Under the pieces are notes generated by a model. It was not told the DNA's origin, did no database searches, and saw only the letters and a list, made by a program, of their open reading frames with translations. Shown here piece after piece: positions 3 to 48,947 of a stretch of 48,947 bases of DNA (its first letter is position 1; the number at the start of each line of letters is the position of its first letter). This stretch comes from Flavobacteriaceae bacterium (GTDB lineage Bacteria; Bacteroidota; Bacteroidia; Flavobacteriales; Flavobacteriaceae): contig JAMONB010000078.1 in assembly GCA_027066745.1 (NCBI GenBank), positions 1 to 48,947 of the forward strand. Direction: 5' to 3'. The position numbers were made by a program, and so were the translations under genes.

Positions 3-2687
3 CAATTTAATAATTTTTCATTAGATGGTGCTATTTTTAATAATCCTTTCGGATTAGATGCGGCTACACCTGGAGGACAAACAGGAGCTCAACCTATATC
101 ATTAGATGCAATTGATCAAATTCAAGTGTCTTCTGCTCCTTATGATGTGACACAATCAGGATTTACAGGAGCTTCTGTAAATGCAGTAACTAAAAGCGGT
201 ACAAATACTTTTCATGGTACTGTTTATGGGTATTATAGAAATCAAGATTTGACAGGTAGTAAAGTAAAGGGAGATGATATTGCTGTACCTAAACTTGCAC
301 AAATACAATCAGGATTTAGTGTTGGCGGACCAATTGTAAAAAACAAATTATTCTTTTTTGTGAATTTTGAAAAAGATGAAAGAGAAGATTTAGGTCAAAA
401 CTGGTTACCAAATAGAGGTACAGGTGCTATTAATGAATCTAGAGTTTTATTGTCAGATTTAAATACTGTAAAAGATGGCTTAGCTTCAATAGGTTATAAT
501 ACAGGTGCTTTTGAGGGGTTTATTCATGAATCAAACTCTACAAAAGGAATTTTTAAATTAGATTGGAATATAAATGATAATAATCGTTTGGCTGTTATTT
601 ATAACTTCTTAAATGCCTCAAAAGATAAACCTGCACATCCAACAGCGTTAGGGTTTAGAGGTCCAAATGCAGCAATGTTACAGTTTGAAAATTCTGGTTA
701 TGAAATTAATAATGAATTGAAATCAATTCAAGTTGAATTGAACTCAACATTGTCTGATGAAGTCTCAAATAAGCTTCAAATTGGTTATACACATTTTAAT
801 GATTTTAGAAACTCAAAATCAGTGCCAATGCCAGCTTTTAGAATACAAGATGGTGCAGGAGGAAATTATATTGTTGTAGGACATGAACCTTTTTCTATTC
901 ATAATAAATTAGATCAAAAAGTATTTCAATTTTCTAATAATTTAAATTATTCTAAAGGAAATCACACCTATACTATTGGTTTTTCTTTTGAGAAATTTCA
1001 ATTTGACAATTCATTTAACTTAGGAACCTATGGTTATGGTTTCGGACCAGGTACTTATACGGAGTATCCTAATGGGGGGTATGTAGGTGCATTTTTTGGT
1101 GATTTCCCTGATATGAACGCTTTTAATACAGCTATTTCTAGTGGAATGTTAGCAGATGCTATGGTAAATGCACAAAGTGTTTTTGATAGTAAAAATGCAG
1201 ATGATTCTTGGGCTTTAGCAGAAACTAATGTGGGACAAATGGCTTTTTATTTACAGGATGAATGGAGTGCTTCAGATAAGTTTAAATTGACGTATGGAGT
1301 GCGTGTTGACAAGCCTTTATTTTTTGATTCTGCTGAAAAAGCACAAAATGTAATTGATAACAGTTTTGTTATTGCTGGTCAACCTTATGTGAATCCTAAT
1401 CATGTAGATCCTAACACAGGGCTAGAAGAAACAGTATTTATTGACAATACTCAACTACCAAATAATGATTGGATTGTTTCGCCTAGATTAGGTTTTAATT
1501 GGGATATTAAAGGTGATGACACCTTCCAACTTCGTGGTGGTACAGGTTACTTTACAGGTCGTTTCCCTTTTGTCTGGTTAGGGAATCAGATTTCATCACC
1601 AAATGTTTATTTCTTACAAGCTGTTGACCCTGATTATAAATTCCCACAAGTTTGGAGAACAAATATTGGAGCAGATAAAAAATTAAAAAATGGAATAATC
1701 TTAACTGCAGATGTATCTTATACTAAAGATTTAAACGGGGCACATGTACAGCATTGGGGCTTAACTAAGCCTACAGAAAGGTTATCTGGTGTTGATAATA
1801 GATCAATATATACTCCAGAAAACTCTCTTAATAGCGGATTTGGTTTAGGAGCAGGACCTTTTGTGTTTACTAACTCAGATAAAGGTAGAATATGGAATGC
1901 TTCTTTAAAAGTTCAAAAATCATTTAAAAATGGATTATACACAATGCTTGCATATAATTATTTAGATGCGAAAGATGTAAACTCTATTGAAGCAGAAATA
2001 ACAGGAGATGCTTTTGTAGGAAATCCAGTTGTAGGAAATGCTAATAATGATAATCTAGGTTTTTCTAAATATGGAGATCAACATAGAATTATTGGTGTTA
2101 TTAGTAAAAAATTCACTTATGGAAATGATAAATGGAGTACTTCTTTATCAACTTTTTTTGAATATGCAAAGGGTAACCGTTTTAATTATACCTATGGTGG
2201 TGACATTAATGGAGATGGCTCTCCGCTAAACGATTTATTATATGTACCAACGTCTAGTGAAATTAATCAAATGACTTTTACAGGAGCTGGTCAAGCAGCT
2301 GCTTTTGAAGCATATATTCAACAAGACGATTATTTAAGCGGAATAAGAGGTCAGTATGCTGAGCGTTATGCAGCTATTTCTCCTTGGAGAGGGAAATGGG
2401 ATGTGAAATTGATACAAGAAGTTAAAGTTTCTGATAATAATGCAATTCAATTTAGCATTGATTTATTAAATGCGGGTAATTTAATTAGTTCAAATTGGGG
2501 ATTAGTACAACAACCTAATAATGTTCAGCCAGTTGGAGTTAATGTTATTTCTTCAACTAATGCAAATAATATTACTACTTATAATCCTGTTTATACTTTT
2601 AATCCAGAATTAAAAGAAACATTTGGTTATGATTCTAGTTTGTTGTCTAGATGGCAAATGCAATTCGGATTAAGATATATTTTCTAA
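3..2687 (+). CDS. TonB-dependent outer-membrane receptor (Oar-like), 5' end outside the window
   Basis: The frame is open from position 3 (QFNNFSLDGAIFNNPFGLDAATPGGQTGAQPISLDAIDQIQVS), so the 126 start is internal. Plug motif PYDVTQSGFTGASVNAVTKSG; C-terminal beta-strand QFGLRYIF. Confidence 0.85.
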   Translation, partial: QFNNFSLDGAIFNNPFGLDAATPGGQTGAQPISLDAIDQIQVSSAPYDVTQSGFTGASVNAVTKSGTNTFHGTVYGYYRNQDLTGSKVKGDDIAVPKLAQIQSGFSVGGPIVKNKLFFFVNFEKDEREDLGQNWLPNRGTGAINESRVLLSDLNTVKDGLASIGYNTGAFEGFIHESNSTKGIFKLDWNINDNNRLAVIYNFLNASKDKPAHPTALGFRGPNAAMLQFENSGYEINNELKSIQVELNSTLSDEVSNKLQIGYTHFNDFRNSKSVPMPAFRIQDGAGGNYIVVGHEPFSIHNKLDQKVFQFSNNLNYSKGNHTYTIGFSFEKFQFDNSFNLGTYGYGFGPGTYTEYPNGGYVGAFFGDFPDMNAFNTAISSGMLADAMVNAQSVFDSKNADDSWALAETNVGQMAFYLQDEWSASDKFKLTYGVRVDKPLFFDSAEKAQNVIDNSFVIAGQPYVNPNHVDPNTGLEETVFIDNTQLPNNDWIVSPRLGFNWDIKGDDTFQLRGGTGYFTGRFPFVWLGNQISSPNVYFLQAVDPDYKFPQVWRTNIGADKKLKNGIILTADVSYTKDLNGAHVQHWGLTKPTERLSGVDNRSIYTPENSLNSGFGLGAGPFVFTNSDKGRIWNASLKVQKSFKNGLYTMLAYNYLDAKDVNSIEAEITGDAFVGNPVVGNANNDNLGFSKYGDQHRIIGVISKKFTYGNDKWSTSLSTFFEYAKGNRFNYTYGGDINGDGSPLNDLLYVPTSSEINQMTFTGAGQAAAFEAYIQQDDYLSGIRGQYAERYAAISPWRGKWDVKLIQEVKVSDNNAIQFSIDLLNAGNLISSNWGLVQQPNNVQPVGVNVISSTNANNITTYNPVYTFNPELKETFGYDSSLLSRWQMQFGLRYIF

Positions 2688-5957: not shown

Positions 5958-6644
5958 CTAAAATCCTTGAGAGATATTATGCAATAGAGGTGAATCAATA
6001 ATTTTAATTTTTTTACCTCTTAATTCTATCAGTCCTTTTTTCTTAAATTCAGAAAGTAAGCGGATTGCAGACTCGGTTGCAGTACCAATAACGCTAGACA
6101 ACTCTTCTCTAGTCAATATAATGTCTAAATATCCTTCAGCATCAATACCAAAAGTGTCTTTCAGAAAAATAAGTGTATCTGCCAATCTTTCTTTTACATG
6201 TTTTTGAGCCATATTAGTAATAATCATATTGGCATCACGTAAATCATGACAAACTGTTTTTGTCATTTCCATAGAGAATTTGGGGTTTGTTTTCATTGCC
6301 TCAAGAACAGTGTTTTTTGAAATGTAACAGGTTTTTAAATCTTTAAGAACGGTAGCGGTTAACGTAACAGGTTCCTCACTTAAAACTGAGCGATAGCCAA
6401 GCATATCACCTTTTTTAATAAATTTCACAATCTGCTCTTTGCCATTTTCACTAAGTCTAGACATTTTGCAAATCCCTTCTTTAATACAGTAAACACCATT
6501 TAAAATATTACCTTCTGAAAATAAAACATCTCCTTTCTTAAAATCAATAGTATCTTTGTGATTAGAAAAATTAAGAATCTCTTCTTTGGATAAAGATTTT
6601 ATACTATTCAGTTCACGTAATATGCAGAGTTCACAATTACTCAT
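5958..6644 (-). CDS. Crp/Fnr family transcriptional regulator, probable O2 sensor
   Basis: cNMP-binding fold (GDMLGYRS), HTH LTREELSSVIGTATESAIRLLSEF, N-terminal CxxC plus internal Cys; divergent from the cco cluster. Confidence 0.9.
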   Translation of the reverse strand: MSNCELCILRELNSIKSLSKEEILNFSNHKDTIDFKKGDVLFSEGNILNGVYCIKEGICKMSRLSENGKEQIVKFIKKGDMLGYRSVLSEEPVTLTATVLKDLKTCYISKNTVLEAMKTNPKFSMEMTKTVCHDLRDANMIITNMAQKHVKERLADTLIFLKDTFGIDAEGYLDIILTREELSSVIGTATESAIRLLSEFKKKGLIELRGKKIKIIDSPLLHNISQGF

Positions 6645-46944: not shown

Positions 46945-47070
46945 TAAAGTTAAATACTAAACATCAAAAACCAAATGATATATATCAGCTCGATATTGCC
47001 TGTATGTCACTGATTTAATTTGATGTATGATGGATGTCATGTCGTAAAACATTATTAAATCATATATTTA
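46945..47070. promoter_or_regulatory. Two back-to-back Fnr-type promoters (hsp20 and WG-repeat gene)
   Basis: TAAAGTTA 46945-46952 / ATGATATATATCAG 46975-46988; ATGATGGATGTCAT 47027-47040 / TATATTTA 47063-47070; both 22-nt gaps. Confidence 0.68.
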
Positions 47071-48192: not shown

Positions 48193-48360
48193 TTATAAAT
48201 ATGGCTTTAATTCATTTTTTCGTTTTTCAATCTGTTTTTCCAGATATCTAATAGTCTTCTTGTTACAAACTCAAAAACCATCTTTATTTGAAGATACATG
48301 AATTCTAGGATCGAGAAGATTTAATTGAACATCATAAATTTTTTATTTTCCTGATGATAA
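48193..48360 (-). pseudogene. Degraded hpf/raiA (ribosome hibernation factor) C-terminal fragment
   Basis: LSSGK*KIYDVQLNLLDPRIHVSSNKDGF*VCNKKTIRYLEKQIEKRKNELKPYL* resembles the Flavobacteriaceae HPF C-terminal half; two in-frame stops, no start. Confidence 0.5.
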
Positions 48361-48410
48361 TTATTAGTTGAAGGAAGAAAGGGAGTTTTTTTATGAAAGA
48401 TATAGTGCCA

Positions 48411-48575
48411 AAATAGAAACAGGAATACTTCACGTATCCCTGTTTCAATTTGGAGATTTCAATTTTATAATTTTAACTATAGAATAAACCTTGAAGTATT
48501 TACTTGTTATGGTATCATCAAGAATTAACCTGAATAAATTATAATATTAAAAAACTTCCAATTGGATAAATACCA
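48411..48575 (-). ncRNA. Candidate structured ncRNA, unit A (diverged copy)
   Basis: TACCTTTG -7 element at 48577-48584; long rod CAAUUGGA...UUAUAAUUU / AAAUUAUAA...UCCAAAUUG; terminal hairpin GAAACAGGGAUAC/GUAUUCCUGUUUC-UAUUU. Confidence 0.5.
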
Positions 48576-48616
48576 ACAAAGGTAAAAATCTCTTTCTATA
48601 TTTCACAGCAGTTAGT

Positions 48617-48777
48617 TTTAAATAGAAACAGGAAGCCGAAACTTCCTGTTTCCTGAAGAGTTTAAGATGGCTTCCTTAGCTTATCAAATAATCTTTTATA
48701 CTATTCTATTGCTAAAATCATACTAAAATTATTCAGAGCTAACTAACGTCTTAAAACTCTCCTTAGTTTATACCATT
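48617..48777 (-). ncRNA. Candidate structured ncRNA, unit B
   Basis: TACCGTTG -7-like element at 48781-48788; rod capped by AUUUUA-GCAA-UAGAAU; terminal hairpin GAAACAGGAAGU-UUCG-GCUUCCUGUUUC-UAUUU. Confidence 0.6.
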
Positions 48778-48799
48778 TTGCAACGGTAAGAACCTGTAC

Positions 48800-48947
48800 T
48801 TTAAATAGAAACAGGAAGTCGAAACCTCCTGTTTCCTGAAGAGGTAAAATTTGTTTATTAACTTTTAGATAATTTTTCACACTATTCTATTGCTAAAATC
48901 GTACTAAAACTATGTATAGCTAATCAACGCCTTAAAACTCTCCTTAG
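48800..48947 (-). ncRNA. Candidate structured ncRNA, unit C (5' end beyond the window)
   Basis: Direct repeat of unit B at a 181-183 nt offset with structure-preserving substitutions. Confidence 0.6.

What the first reader, a model, noticed from the sequence alone, without database searches (positions are those of the whole stretch)
48411..48947. Tandem array of at least three promoter-bearing, rod-shaped non-coding RNA units
Seen: AAATAGAAACAGG-hairpin-CCTGTTTC recurs at 48411, 48620 and 48803 (spacing 209 and 183). Units B and C are clear ~182-nt direct repeats; A has diverged in sequence but keeps the architecture. On the minus strand A and B read: -7 element (TACCTTTG, TACCGTTG), TGGTAT near the 5' end, a ~110-125-nt rod, then the terminal hairpin plus UAUUU. 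The unit B rod pairs GGAGAG/CUCUUC, UUUAAGA/UCUUAAA, UUAGCU/AGCUAA, GAAUAAUUUU/AAGAUUAUUU and AUUUUA-GCAA-UAGAAU. B and C have GNRA and UUCG tetraloops. All three terminal hairpins contain G-U pairs on minus that would be A-C mismatches on plus, and B/C differences largely preserve pairing. No ORFs. Inference: a paralogous structured ncRNA family, such as 6S-like polymerase or sigma decoys, protein sponges, antitoxins, or RNAs of an enzyme encoded beyond the window edge, where the array is cut off.
Basis: partly seen in the sequence, partly recalled or inferred. Interest (0 to 1): 0.85.

Follow-up and report, generated by a model that had tools for sequence, protein, structure and literature searches.

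The report
Low-oxygen tandem rod-RNA operon
Many Flavobacteriaceae carry a row of one to nine repeated hairpin-rod-hairpin RNA units, unmatched in Rfam, behind a low-oxygen-type promoter and the read-through signal found at their ribosomal RNA operons; it is predicted to be made as one long non-coding RNA that likely serves as a decoy for RNA-handling proteins when the cells shut down without oxygen.

Summary
The array is real and belongs to a conserved RNA family with no Rfam match. Each ~183-nt unit has three helices on the minus strand: a short GNRA hairpin, a ~110-nt bulged rod, and a UUCG-type hairpin; pairing covaries across homologs. Arrays of 1-9 units occur in at least 22 of 150 sampled Flavobacteriaceae genomes (one per genus), with no convincing hit in other Bacteroidota. 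In relatives, one promoter precedes the array: an FNR-type box, a -7 element 23 nt later, then the same boxA that precedes 16S and 23S rRNA in this family. Of 131 promoters of this type only the 11 array promoters carry boxA there. Internal hairpins have weaker U-tails than the last, as read-through predicts. The same box precedes cbb3 oxidase, NO/N2O reductase, hemN, Usp, Hsp20 and HPF genes. The window's contig breaks inside a collapsed repeat (about 5-6 units). It is not 6S, CsrB, Y RNA, an antitoxin cassette or a MITE. Expression and target are untested; a decoy mimicking pre-rRNA is my best guess.

The parts
48799..48947 (-). Unit C: rod P2 (48838-48943) and hairpin P3 (48807-48836); its P1 lies at or beyond the contig end. 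Stands for about 3-4 collapsed near-identical copies
   Evidence: fold; model hits; depth 42 vs 13 and 58-83 vs 19.5 in two DNA runs
48616..48794 (-). Unit B, complete three-helix module
   Evidence: R2 153.8 bits (B was in the training set)
48765..48794 (-).
   Evidence: homologs
48655..48762 (-). Unit B P2: 108-nt bulged rod with apical GCAA loop
48624..48653 (-). Unit B P3: 13-bp UUCG hairpin, terminator-like, internal
48600..48611 (-). Linker motif before the last unit (GCTGTGAAA here; GCTATGA in same-genus homologs), role unexplained
48408..48590 (-). Unit A, the last unit: weak P1 (~48565-48590), rod (~48450-48561), P3 (~48416-48446) with U-rich tail, the predicted terminator of the array
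   Evidence: groups with last units of relatives at 98/99 support
48199..48351 (-). Context: remnant of the ribosome hibernation factor (HPF/S30AE) gene, C-terminal half only; intact directly downstream of the array in G020 and G021
46976..46987 (-). Context: regulon box (TGAY-N4-RTCA, 23 nt before a -7 element) of hsp20; same promoter type as the array promoter of relatives

Best explanation
The array is a conserved run of three-helix RNA modules that is predicted to be transcribed under low oxygen as one non-coding transcript from an FNR-type promoter, to be read through its weak internal terminators with help from the rRNA antitermination complex loaded at boxA, and likely to work as a bulk decoy that occupies the rRNA-making machinery (Nus factors at boxA; RNase III or other double-strand-RNA binders on the rods) as the cell enters dormancy. 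Shown by sequence comparison: the module structure, the single promoter layout, the boxA and its match to the rRNA boxA, the weak internal versus strong terminal U-tails, the regulon membership. Inferred, about 0.85: one read-through RNA induced by low oxygen. Inferred, about 0.5: stoichiometric decoy or sponge. Inferred, about 0.25-0.3: the target is the rRNA transcription and processing line.
For: Shape kept while sequence drifts: median rod 110 nt (IQR 106-112), sense strand folds better in 117 of 122 units, z < -2 in 101 of 122; 66 of 71 pairs show double changes, score 0.337 vs 0.10-0.14 slid. GNRA loops in P1 46 of 89 and P2 50 of 89. Box plus boxA upstream in 51 of 60 arrays vs 15 of 600 random windows and in 46 of 47 metagenome arrays with room upstream. 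boxA sits 13-23 nt after the -7 element in 11 of 131 regulon promoters, all 11 leading into arrays. GTTCATTGA precedes 16S and 23S in 3 of 3 rRNA operons examined and is the form in Lutibacter arrays. The promoter pattern alone finds 30 of 300 family genomes, reversed control 0; 24 of 30 loci have a unit downstream, 15 of 21 outside the training set. U in the 9 nt after the P3 core: 5.3 in 76 internal vs 7.1 in 29 last units (related sequences, not independent). Copy number grows by tandem duplication to 6-9 with some identical copies, which fits a dose-dependent role. No protein tested is obligately linked, which points to a core target; nusB is present in 5 of 5 genomes and an RNase III signature in G000. 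[quoted passage not shown]
Against: No transcript was seen; all of it rests on DNA. The units show no sequence or model similarity to rRNA or its processing stalks (best R2 score 17 bits, E 0.31), and the real 16S stalks here are long, near-perfect helices unlike the bulged rods. boxA is fully explained by read-through alone, with no decoy role. A 16S-5'-like string at the rod base is found in only 19 of 122 units. The structure used was derived from the same sequences; the independent column test puts five of its six best pairs in P3 and one in the rod. G-U cells (629) are not above the composition expectation (603); only A-C is depleted (164 vs 345). About three in four genomes with the regulator have no detected array (20 of 75 do), so it is dispensable.
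Confidence: 0.4

Rival explanations
1. Self-assembling structural RNA: the two GNRA loops of each module dock on the conserved tandem C-G pairs of P3 in neighbouring modules, giving a compact or multimeric particle that stores, scaffolds or condenses other molecules (RNA, nucleoid, ribosomes) in dormancy.
For: GNRA loops in P1 and P2; CAGG/CCUG in P3 in 77 of 89 units; P3 sequence is far better conserved than a terminator needs; consensus helices of about 11 bp, one helical turn. GNRA docking on tandem C-G pairs is recalled knowledge.
Against: Only 12 of 89 units vary in the P3 core, too few to test loop-receptor covariation, and no pattern was seen. Rod interiors vary widely between genera.
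Confidence: 0.18
2. RNA polymerase decoy that works like 6S or Ms1 but is specific to low oxygen.
For: Long duplex; dormancy-type regulon; the Lacto-usp motif is a recalled precedent for an RNA beside usp genes (listed in PMC2864571).
Against: No central bubble: 2 of 114 rods have a loop with 10 nt or more on both sides, median largest loop 7 nt, whereas the genome's own 6S-Flavo has an 18-nt open strand. A canonical 6S-Flavo lies elsewhere in 5 of 5 genomes and the array does not score with RF01685 or RF00013 at E <= 10.
Confidence: 0.13
3. Precursor that is cut into small base-pairing regulators of mRNAs (in the manner of DrrS, or of NsiR1 copies).
For: Regulon-controlled; A-rich single-stranded linkers could be cut; unit types are inherited by position (16 label changes vs 36.8 shuffled). 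[quoted passage not shown]
Against: The conserved letters lie in paired regions and tetraloops; no conserved single-stranded seed. Target prediction was not run.
Confidence: 0.13
4. RNA partner or antitoxin of the 129-aa membrane protein often encoded just upstream (an OLE/OapA-like membrane RNP).
For: The gene is present in 16 of 22 array genomes vs 9 of 128 others and is often the next gene upstream.
Against: 6 of 22 array genomes lack it with this query; in 8 genomes with the gene and no genome-wide hit the fetched regions gave at best one weak unit (E 0.002); it has its own regulon promoter in some loci; no Pfam or NCBIfam family, atlas clusters hypothetical. Kin are not independent.
Confidence: 0.07
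5. DNA repeat (MITE, REP-like element or stacked terminators) with no function as RNA.
For: Rods are imperfect palindromes; P3 resembles a terminator.
Against: One locus in G000; syntenic and inherited by position; strand-biased folding with RNA-type tetraloops; dedicated promoter with boxA; no match in plasmids, one short weak phage match.
Confidence: 0.04

Closest known systems
rRNA operon leader (boxA / Nus antitermination)
   Same: Same boxA core as at 16S and 23S of this family, 13-23 nt after the -7 element; non-coding structured transcript
   Different: Low-oxygen FNR-type promoter; no rRNA or tRNA; payload is 1-9 rod modules without rRNA similarity
CRISPR arrays with boxA
   Same: Tandem non-coding array, one promoter, boxA upstream (boxA at CRISPR operons stated in PMC13753749, passage)
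   Different: No repeat-spacer alternation; whole 183-nt modules are paralogous and folded; no cas genes among the ORFs examined beside the arrays
6S RNA / 6S-Flavo (RF00013, RF01685)
   Same: Rod of about 110 nt; plausible dormancy role
   Different: No central bubble, no model match, multicopy, separate canonical 6S-Flavo present
DrrS (MTS1338) of the mycobacterial DosR regulon
   Same: Non-coding RNA under a hypoxia regulator (PMC5360333, abstract); neighbours of the Usp, Hsp20, hibernation-factor, NrdJ and PRTase type (likeness to the DosR regulon is recalled)
   Different: Different phylum, regulator and structure; DrrS is single; homology not tested
NsiR1 tandem sRNA copies of Nostoc
   Same: Tandem paralogous RNA units (search listing only; details recalled)
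   Different: NsiR1 copies are short base-pairing RNAs, recalled to have a promoter each; here one promoter and long rods
CsrB/RsmZ protein sponges
   Same: Repeated modules; P3 contains CAGGA
   Different: CAGGA is base-paired, not in loops; no CsrA in 5 of 5 array genomes

Membership tests
6S / 6S-Flavo | Match to RF00013 or RF01685 | tested here: not met
6S / 6S-Flavo | Large central single-stranded bubble | tested here: not met
   2 of 114 rods with >=10 nt on both sides
6S / 6S-Flavo | Binds sigma-70 holoenzyme, templates pRNA | not testable with these tools
   needs pull-down
boxA-led (Nus-antiterminated) non-coding operon | Host-type boxA shortly after the promoter, in untranslated sequence | tested here: met
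   (in relatives; beyond the contig end in this genome)
boxA-led (Nus-antiterminated) non-coding operon | NusB/S10 occupancy and boxA-dependent read-through | not testable with these tools
   nusB present in 5 of 5 genomes; binding untested
FNR/CRP-type low-oxygen regulon | Palindromic box at fixed distance from the promoter, shared with low-oxygen genes | tested here: met
   23-nt spacing in nearly all of 131 promoters; boxes before cbb3 oxidase, NO reductase-like, nosZ operon, hemN in the window
FNR/CRP-type low-oxygen regulon | Induction by low oxygen or NO, and identity of the regulator | tested here: inconclusive
   two candidates: stand-alone Fnr-like protein (window 5958-6644) and REC-Crp regulator (20 of 22 array genomes vs 55 of 128); induction not measurable here
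CRISPR array | Short identical repeats with unique spacers, cas genes | tested here: not met
   no cas among neighbouring ORF clusters; no genome-wide cas search
CsrB/RsmZ | GGA motifs in loops and a CsrA partner | tested here: not met
Bacterial Y RNA | Ro60/TROVE gene in the genome, usually adjacent | tested here: not met
   0 of 5 genomes
Type I / III toxin-antitoxin RNA | Linked toxin gene or conserved small ORF | tested here: not met
   no obligate neighbour; longest ATG frame median 16 codons, periods of non-triplet lengths
MITE / dispersed repeat | Dispersed copies at unrelated sites | tested here: not met
   target-site duplications not scored separately
Array with one promoter per unit (NsiR1-like) | Conserved promoter in every unit | tested here: not met
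   12 of 122 units

The most novel reading that the evidence does not exclude
A dormancy-induced 'rRNA operon without rRNA': a mock pre-rRNA or self-assembling multi-rod RNA, made with the rRNA antitermination machinery, that throttles ribosome production or shelters the gene-expression machinery in anoxia, an RNA counterpart of ribosome hibernation factor and a new class of bacterial stable RNA.
Probability: 0.35. Interest if true: 0.9.

Novelty: categorically new. Interest (0 to 1): 0.76.

Why it matters
boxA-led antitermination is known for rRNA operons, CRISPR arrays and a few mRNA leaders. A third kind of boxA-led non-coding array, switched by a low-oxygen regulator and amplified up to nine modules, would be a new class of stable bacterial RNA in a family that is central to marine and sediment carbon turnover. 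It gives a direct handle on how Bacteroidota shut down and restart gene expression without oxygen, and a natural substrate to test whether Nus complexes override intrinsic terminators outside enterobacteria. The sharply defined promoter (box, 23 nt, -7 element) also maps a low-oxygen regulon of Flavobacteriaceae. If the RNA proves to be an ordinary protein sponge, the rating falls to a new variant of a known kind.

Tried and rejected
Rfam: window region, best E 1.8; 20 homologous loci, nothing at gathering score, best E 0.046 on terminator hairpins. 6S and 6S-Flavo. Per-unit promoters. Mimicry of 16S helices 44-45 or descent from an rRNA operon: no similarity beyond boxA. Dedicated protein partner: 129-aa membrane protein, secreted WG-repeat protein (18 of 22 vs 23 of 128), island gene clusters (windows centred differently, so biased). 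CsrA and Ro60. Phages and plasmids: 5 viral-contig pattern hits, none with a convincing unit. Expression: no RNA holder listed; metagenome hits were all contigs over 1.4 kb, uninformative on transcripts. The continuation of the contig was not found in G000. RNAalifold on plain MAFFT alignments recovered only P3 and part of the rod, so consensus pairs were taken from averaged pair probabilities; structure-aware MAFFT was unavailable. GNRA-receptor covariation: too few variants. The published CRISPR-boxA paper was not held. Earlier scan findings: nothing by place or sequence.

Full report
Observation. The three repeats, the B/C similarity, the minus-strand rods and the terminal hairpins are as described. 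The window is the whole of contig C78 of a 91%-complete genome, and the array has no second locus in it. Laying four public runs on the region shows why the contig ends: in two DNA runs the stretch 48750-48941 has 3-4 times the depth of its flanks (42 vs 13; 58-83 vs 19.5) and a loose end at 48941 that reads as the short first hairpin of another unit (one of these runs may be the source sample). The true array here is therefore about 5-6 units, and its promoter lies beyond the assembly.

The family. DNA search of 61 relatives and a neighbour-gene search gave clear arrays in 10 of 24 same-genus genomes (weak hits in other families were not followed). A pattern scan of species genomes gave 82 stretches; those with strong model hits were titled Lutibacter, Aureibaculum, Gaetbulibacter, Algibacter, Pontimicrobium or Flavobacteriaceae/Flavobacteriales, and the hits in other phyla scored at best E 0.003. 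A refined model (R2, 66 units) found 22 of 150 family genomes, one per genus (a lower bound, since only 17 candidates per genome are scored and G066 was missed). In a 150-genome phylum sample it found one family member and one borderline hit (E 8e-4). In metagenomes 57 of 79 pattern loci held units, 1-9 per locus, with some redundancy.

The module. Each unit of about 183 nt is P1 (about 13 bp), P2 (rod, median 110 nt, four helices of about 11, 11, 7 and 12 bp) and P3 (13 bp), joined by A-rich linkers. Of 122 distinct units the sense strand folds better in 117, the rod has z < -2 in 101 (12 shuffles each), and 91 fold into exactly three hairpins. GNRA caps P1 in 46 and P2 in 50 of 89 scored units; P3 carries UUCG-type loops and a CAGG/CCUG core in 77 of 89. 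On a sequence-only alignment of 66 units, 66 of 71 pairs show double changes and the covariation score (0.337) exceeds shuffled (0.213) and slid (0.10-0.14) controls; the structure came from these sequences, so this leans in its favour. In an unbiased column test on 94 units the six strongest pairs are all predicted pairs, five in P3 and one in the rod. A-C cells are depleted (164 vs 345 expected) but G-U cells are not enriched over composition (629 vs 603). Units are inherited by position with lineage-specific duplications; unit A groups with the last units of relatives.

One promoter, not three. Upstream of the first unit relatives have TGAY-N4-RTCA, 23 nt, TAnnTT(T/A)(G/A), then GTTC(A/T)TT(G/T)A: 51 of 60 arrays against 15 of 600 random windows, and 46 of 47 metagenome arrays with room upstream. 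GTTCATTGA precedes 16S and lies in the 16S-23S spacer in 3 of 3 rRNA operons examined, the positions of boxA (boxA function and the E. coli and B. subtilis consensus from PMC13753749, passages; PMC5725501, passages; TAnnTTTG as the flavobacterial -7 box from PMC9723704, passages). In 32 loci I counted 131 promoters of this type; 15 had a boxA-like match in the next 45 nt, 11 of them at 13-23 nt and all 11 leading into arrays, the other four at or inside protein starts or at position 2. Used alone, the promoter pattern hits 30 of 300 family genomes (reversed control 0) and 3 of 400 phylum genomes, all in the family. Of the 30 loci returned, 24 have a same-strand unit downstream, 15 of 21 outside the training set; three lead into protein genes, one shows the module by eye without a model hit, and two give only a short hairpin plus terminator. 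P3 tails hold 5.3 U of 9 in 76 internal units and 7.1 in 29 last units, as expected for read-through to a final terminator.

The regulon. In the window the same promoter type precedes the cbb3 oxidase, NO-reductase-like and cytochrome cd1-like genes, the nosZ operon, hemN, usp, hsp20 and the WG-repeat/DUF2267 pair (the cd1 and NO-reductase labels rest on weak family hits and recall). In relatives it also precedes HPF and other island genes such as class II ribonucleotide reductase neighbours, DUF302 and phosphoribosyltransferase genes lie in the same island. cbb3 oxidase and heme genes rise under oxygen limitation in F. psychrophilum (PMC9723704, passage). A REC-Crp regulator is found in 20 of 22 array genomes and 55 of 128 others; a stand-alone Fnr-like gene is in the window. 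Which one reads the box is not settled.

Mechanism. Conserved length and shape with drifting sequence, repeated amplification, no obligate partner gene and an rRNA-type leader point to an abundant RNA that acts by amount on core machinery. [quoted passage not shown] This last step is inference and has evidence against it: no rRNA or stalk similarity, and boxA needs no explanation beyond read-through. A self-assembling structural RNA, a polymerase decoy and an sRNA precursor are the rivals.

Known families and novelty. No Rfam 15 match. 6S, CsrB, Y RNA, toxin-antitoxin, CRISPR and MITE membership fail on tested features. Ten literature searches returned no description of this array or of a boxA-led hypoxia RNA in Bacteroidota. 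The library lacks most subscription papers. I saw passages and supplement excerpts of PMC2864571, the abstract of PMC5360333 and passages of PMC8510549 (not informative). I did not see the supplementary RNA lists of PMC9723704 or of later motif-discovery screens, where an unnamed homolog could be listed. One earlier scan note (e1-4561583) describes three tandem rod repeats in a freshwater Bacteroidota genome; a sequence look-up gave no link and I could not compare it.

Verdict. Real, conserved, undescribed in the sources searched, and stranger than first read: a boxA-led, low-oxygen-type operon of tandem rod RNAs. Expression and target remain untested. Interest 0.76.

Noticed in passing
window 48199-48351 (-): Truncated HPF/S30AE gene: C-terminal half only, N-terminus lost; another HPF homolog lies on contig C47.
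   Followed up: partly
window 9202, 28149, 30659, 35546, 43093, 45051, 45062, 46987, 47028: Nine promoters with the box exactly 22-24 nt before the -7 element: a sharply defined low-oxygen regulon of Flavobacteriaceae (131 such promoters in 32 loci).
   Followed up: yes
L288 and L289, about 1570-1640 (+): Box, -7 element and boxA followed only by a small hairpin and a terminator (about 70 nt), without a rod: a remnant, or a minimal boxA RNA.
   Followed up: no
L351:1006-2630 (-): Nine contiguous units, the longest array seen.
   Followed up: partly
L076, between the last unit and the DUF302 gene: A short reading-frame-like stretch (lipoprotein-like fragment by eye) inserted after the array; not examined.
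   Followed up: no
window 48600-48611 (-); L042-L048, L050, L052: Conserved GCTATGA linker before the last unit in this genus; a similar GGCTATTAATCA follows the last unit in other genera. Unexplained.
   Followed up: partly
L042:6577-6966 (-): 129-aa membrane protein without Pfam or NCBIfam family, in 25 of 150 family genomes, often just upstream of the array.
   Followed up: partly
G000:C361:4785-4911: Canonical 6S-Flavo RNA of this genome.
   Followed up: yes
L291 (G013 rRNA operon), leader before 16S: The 16S 5' end is predicted to pair with the leader through a GAGUUU/AAACU helix like the rod base of the array units in this genus; only 19 of 122 units have the 16S-like string, probably coincidence.
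   Followed up: partly
G017 (C122 and C137), G098 (C13 and C29), G441 (C110): Genomes with two separate array promoters.
   Followed up: partly
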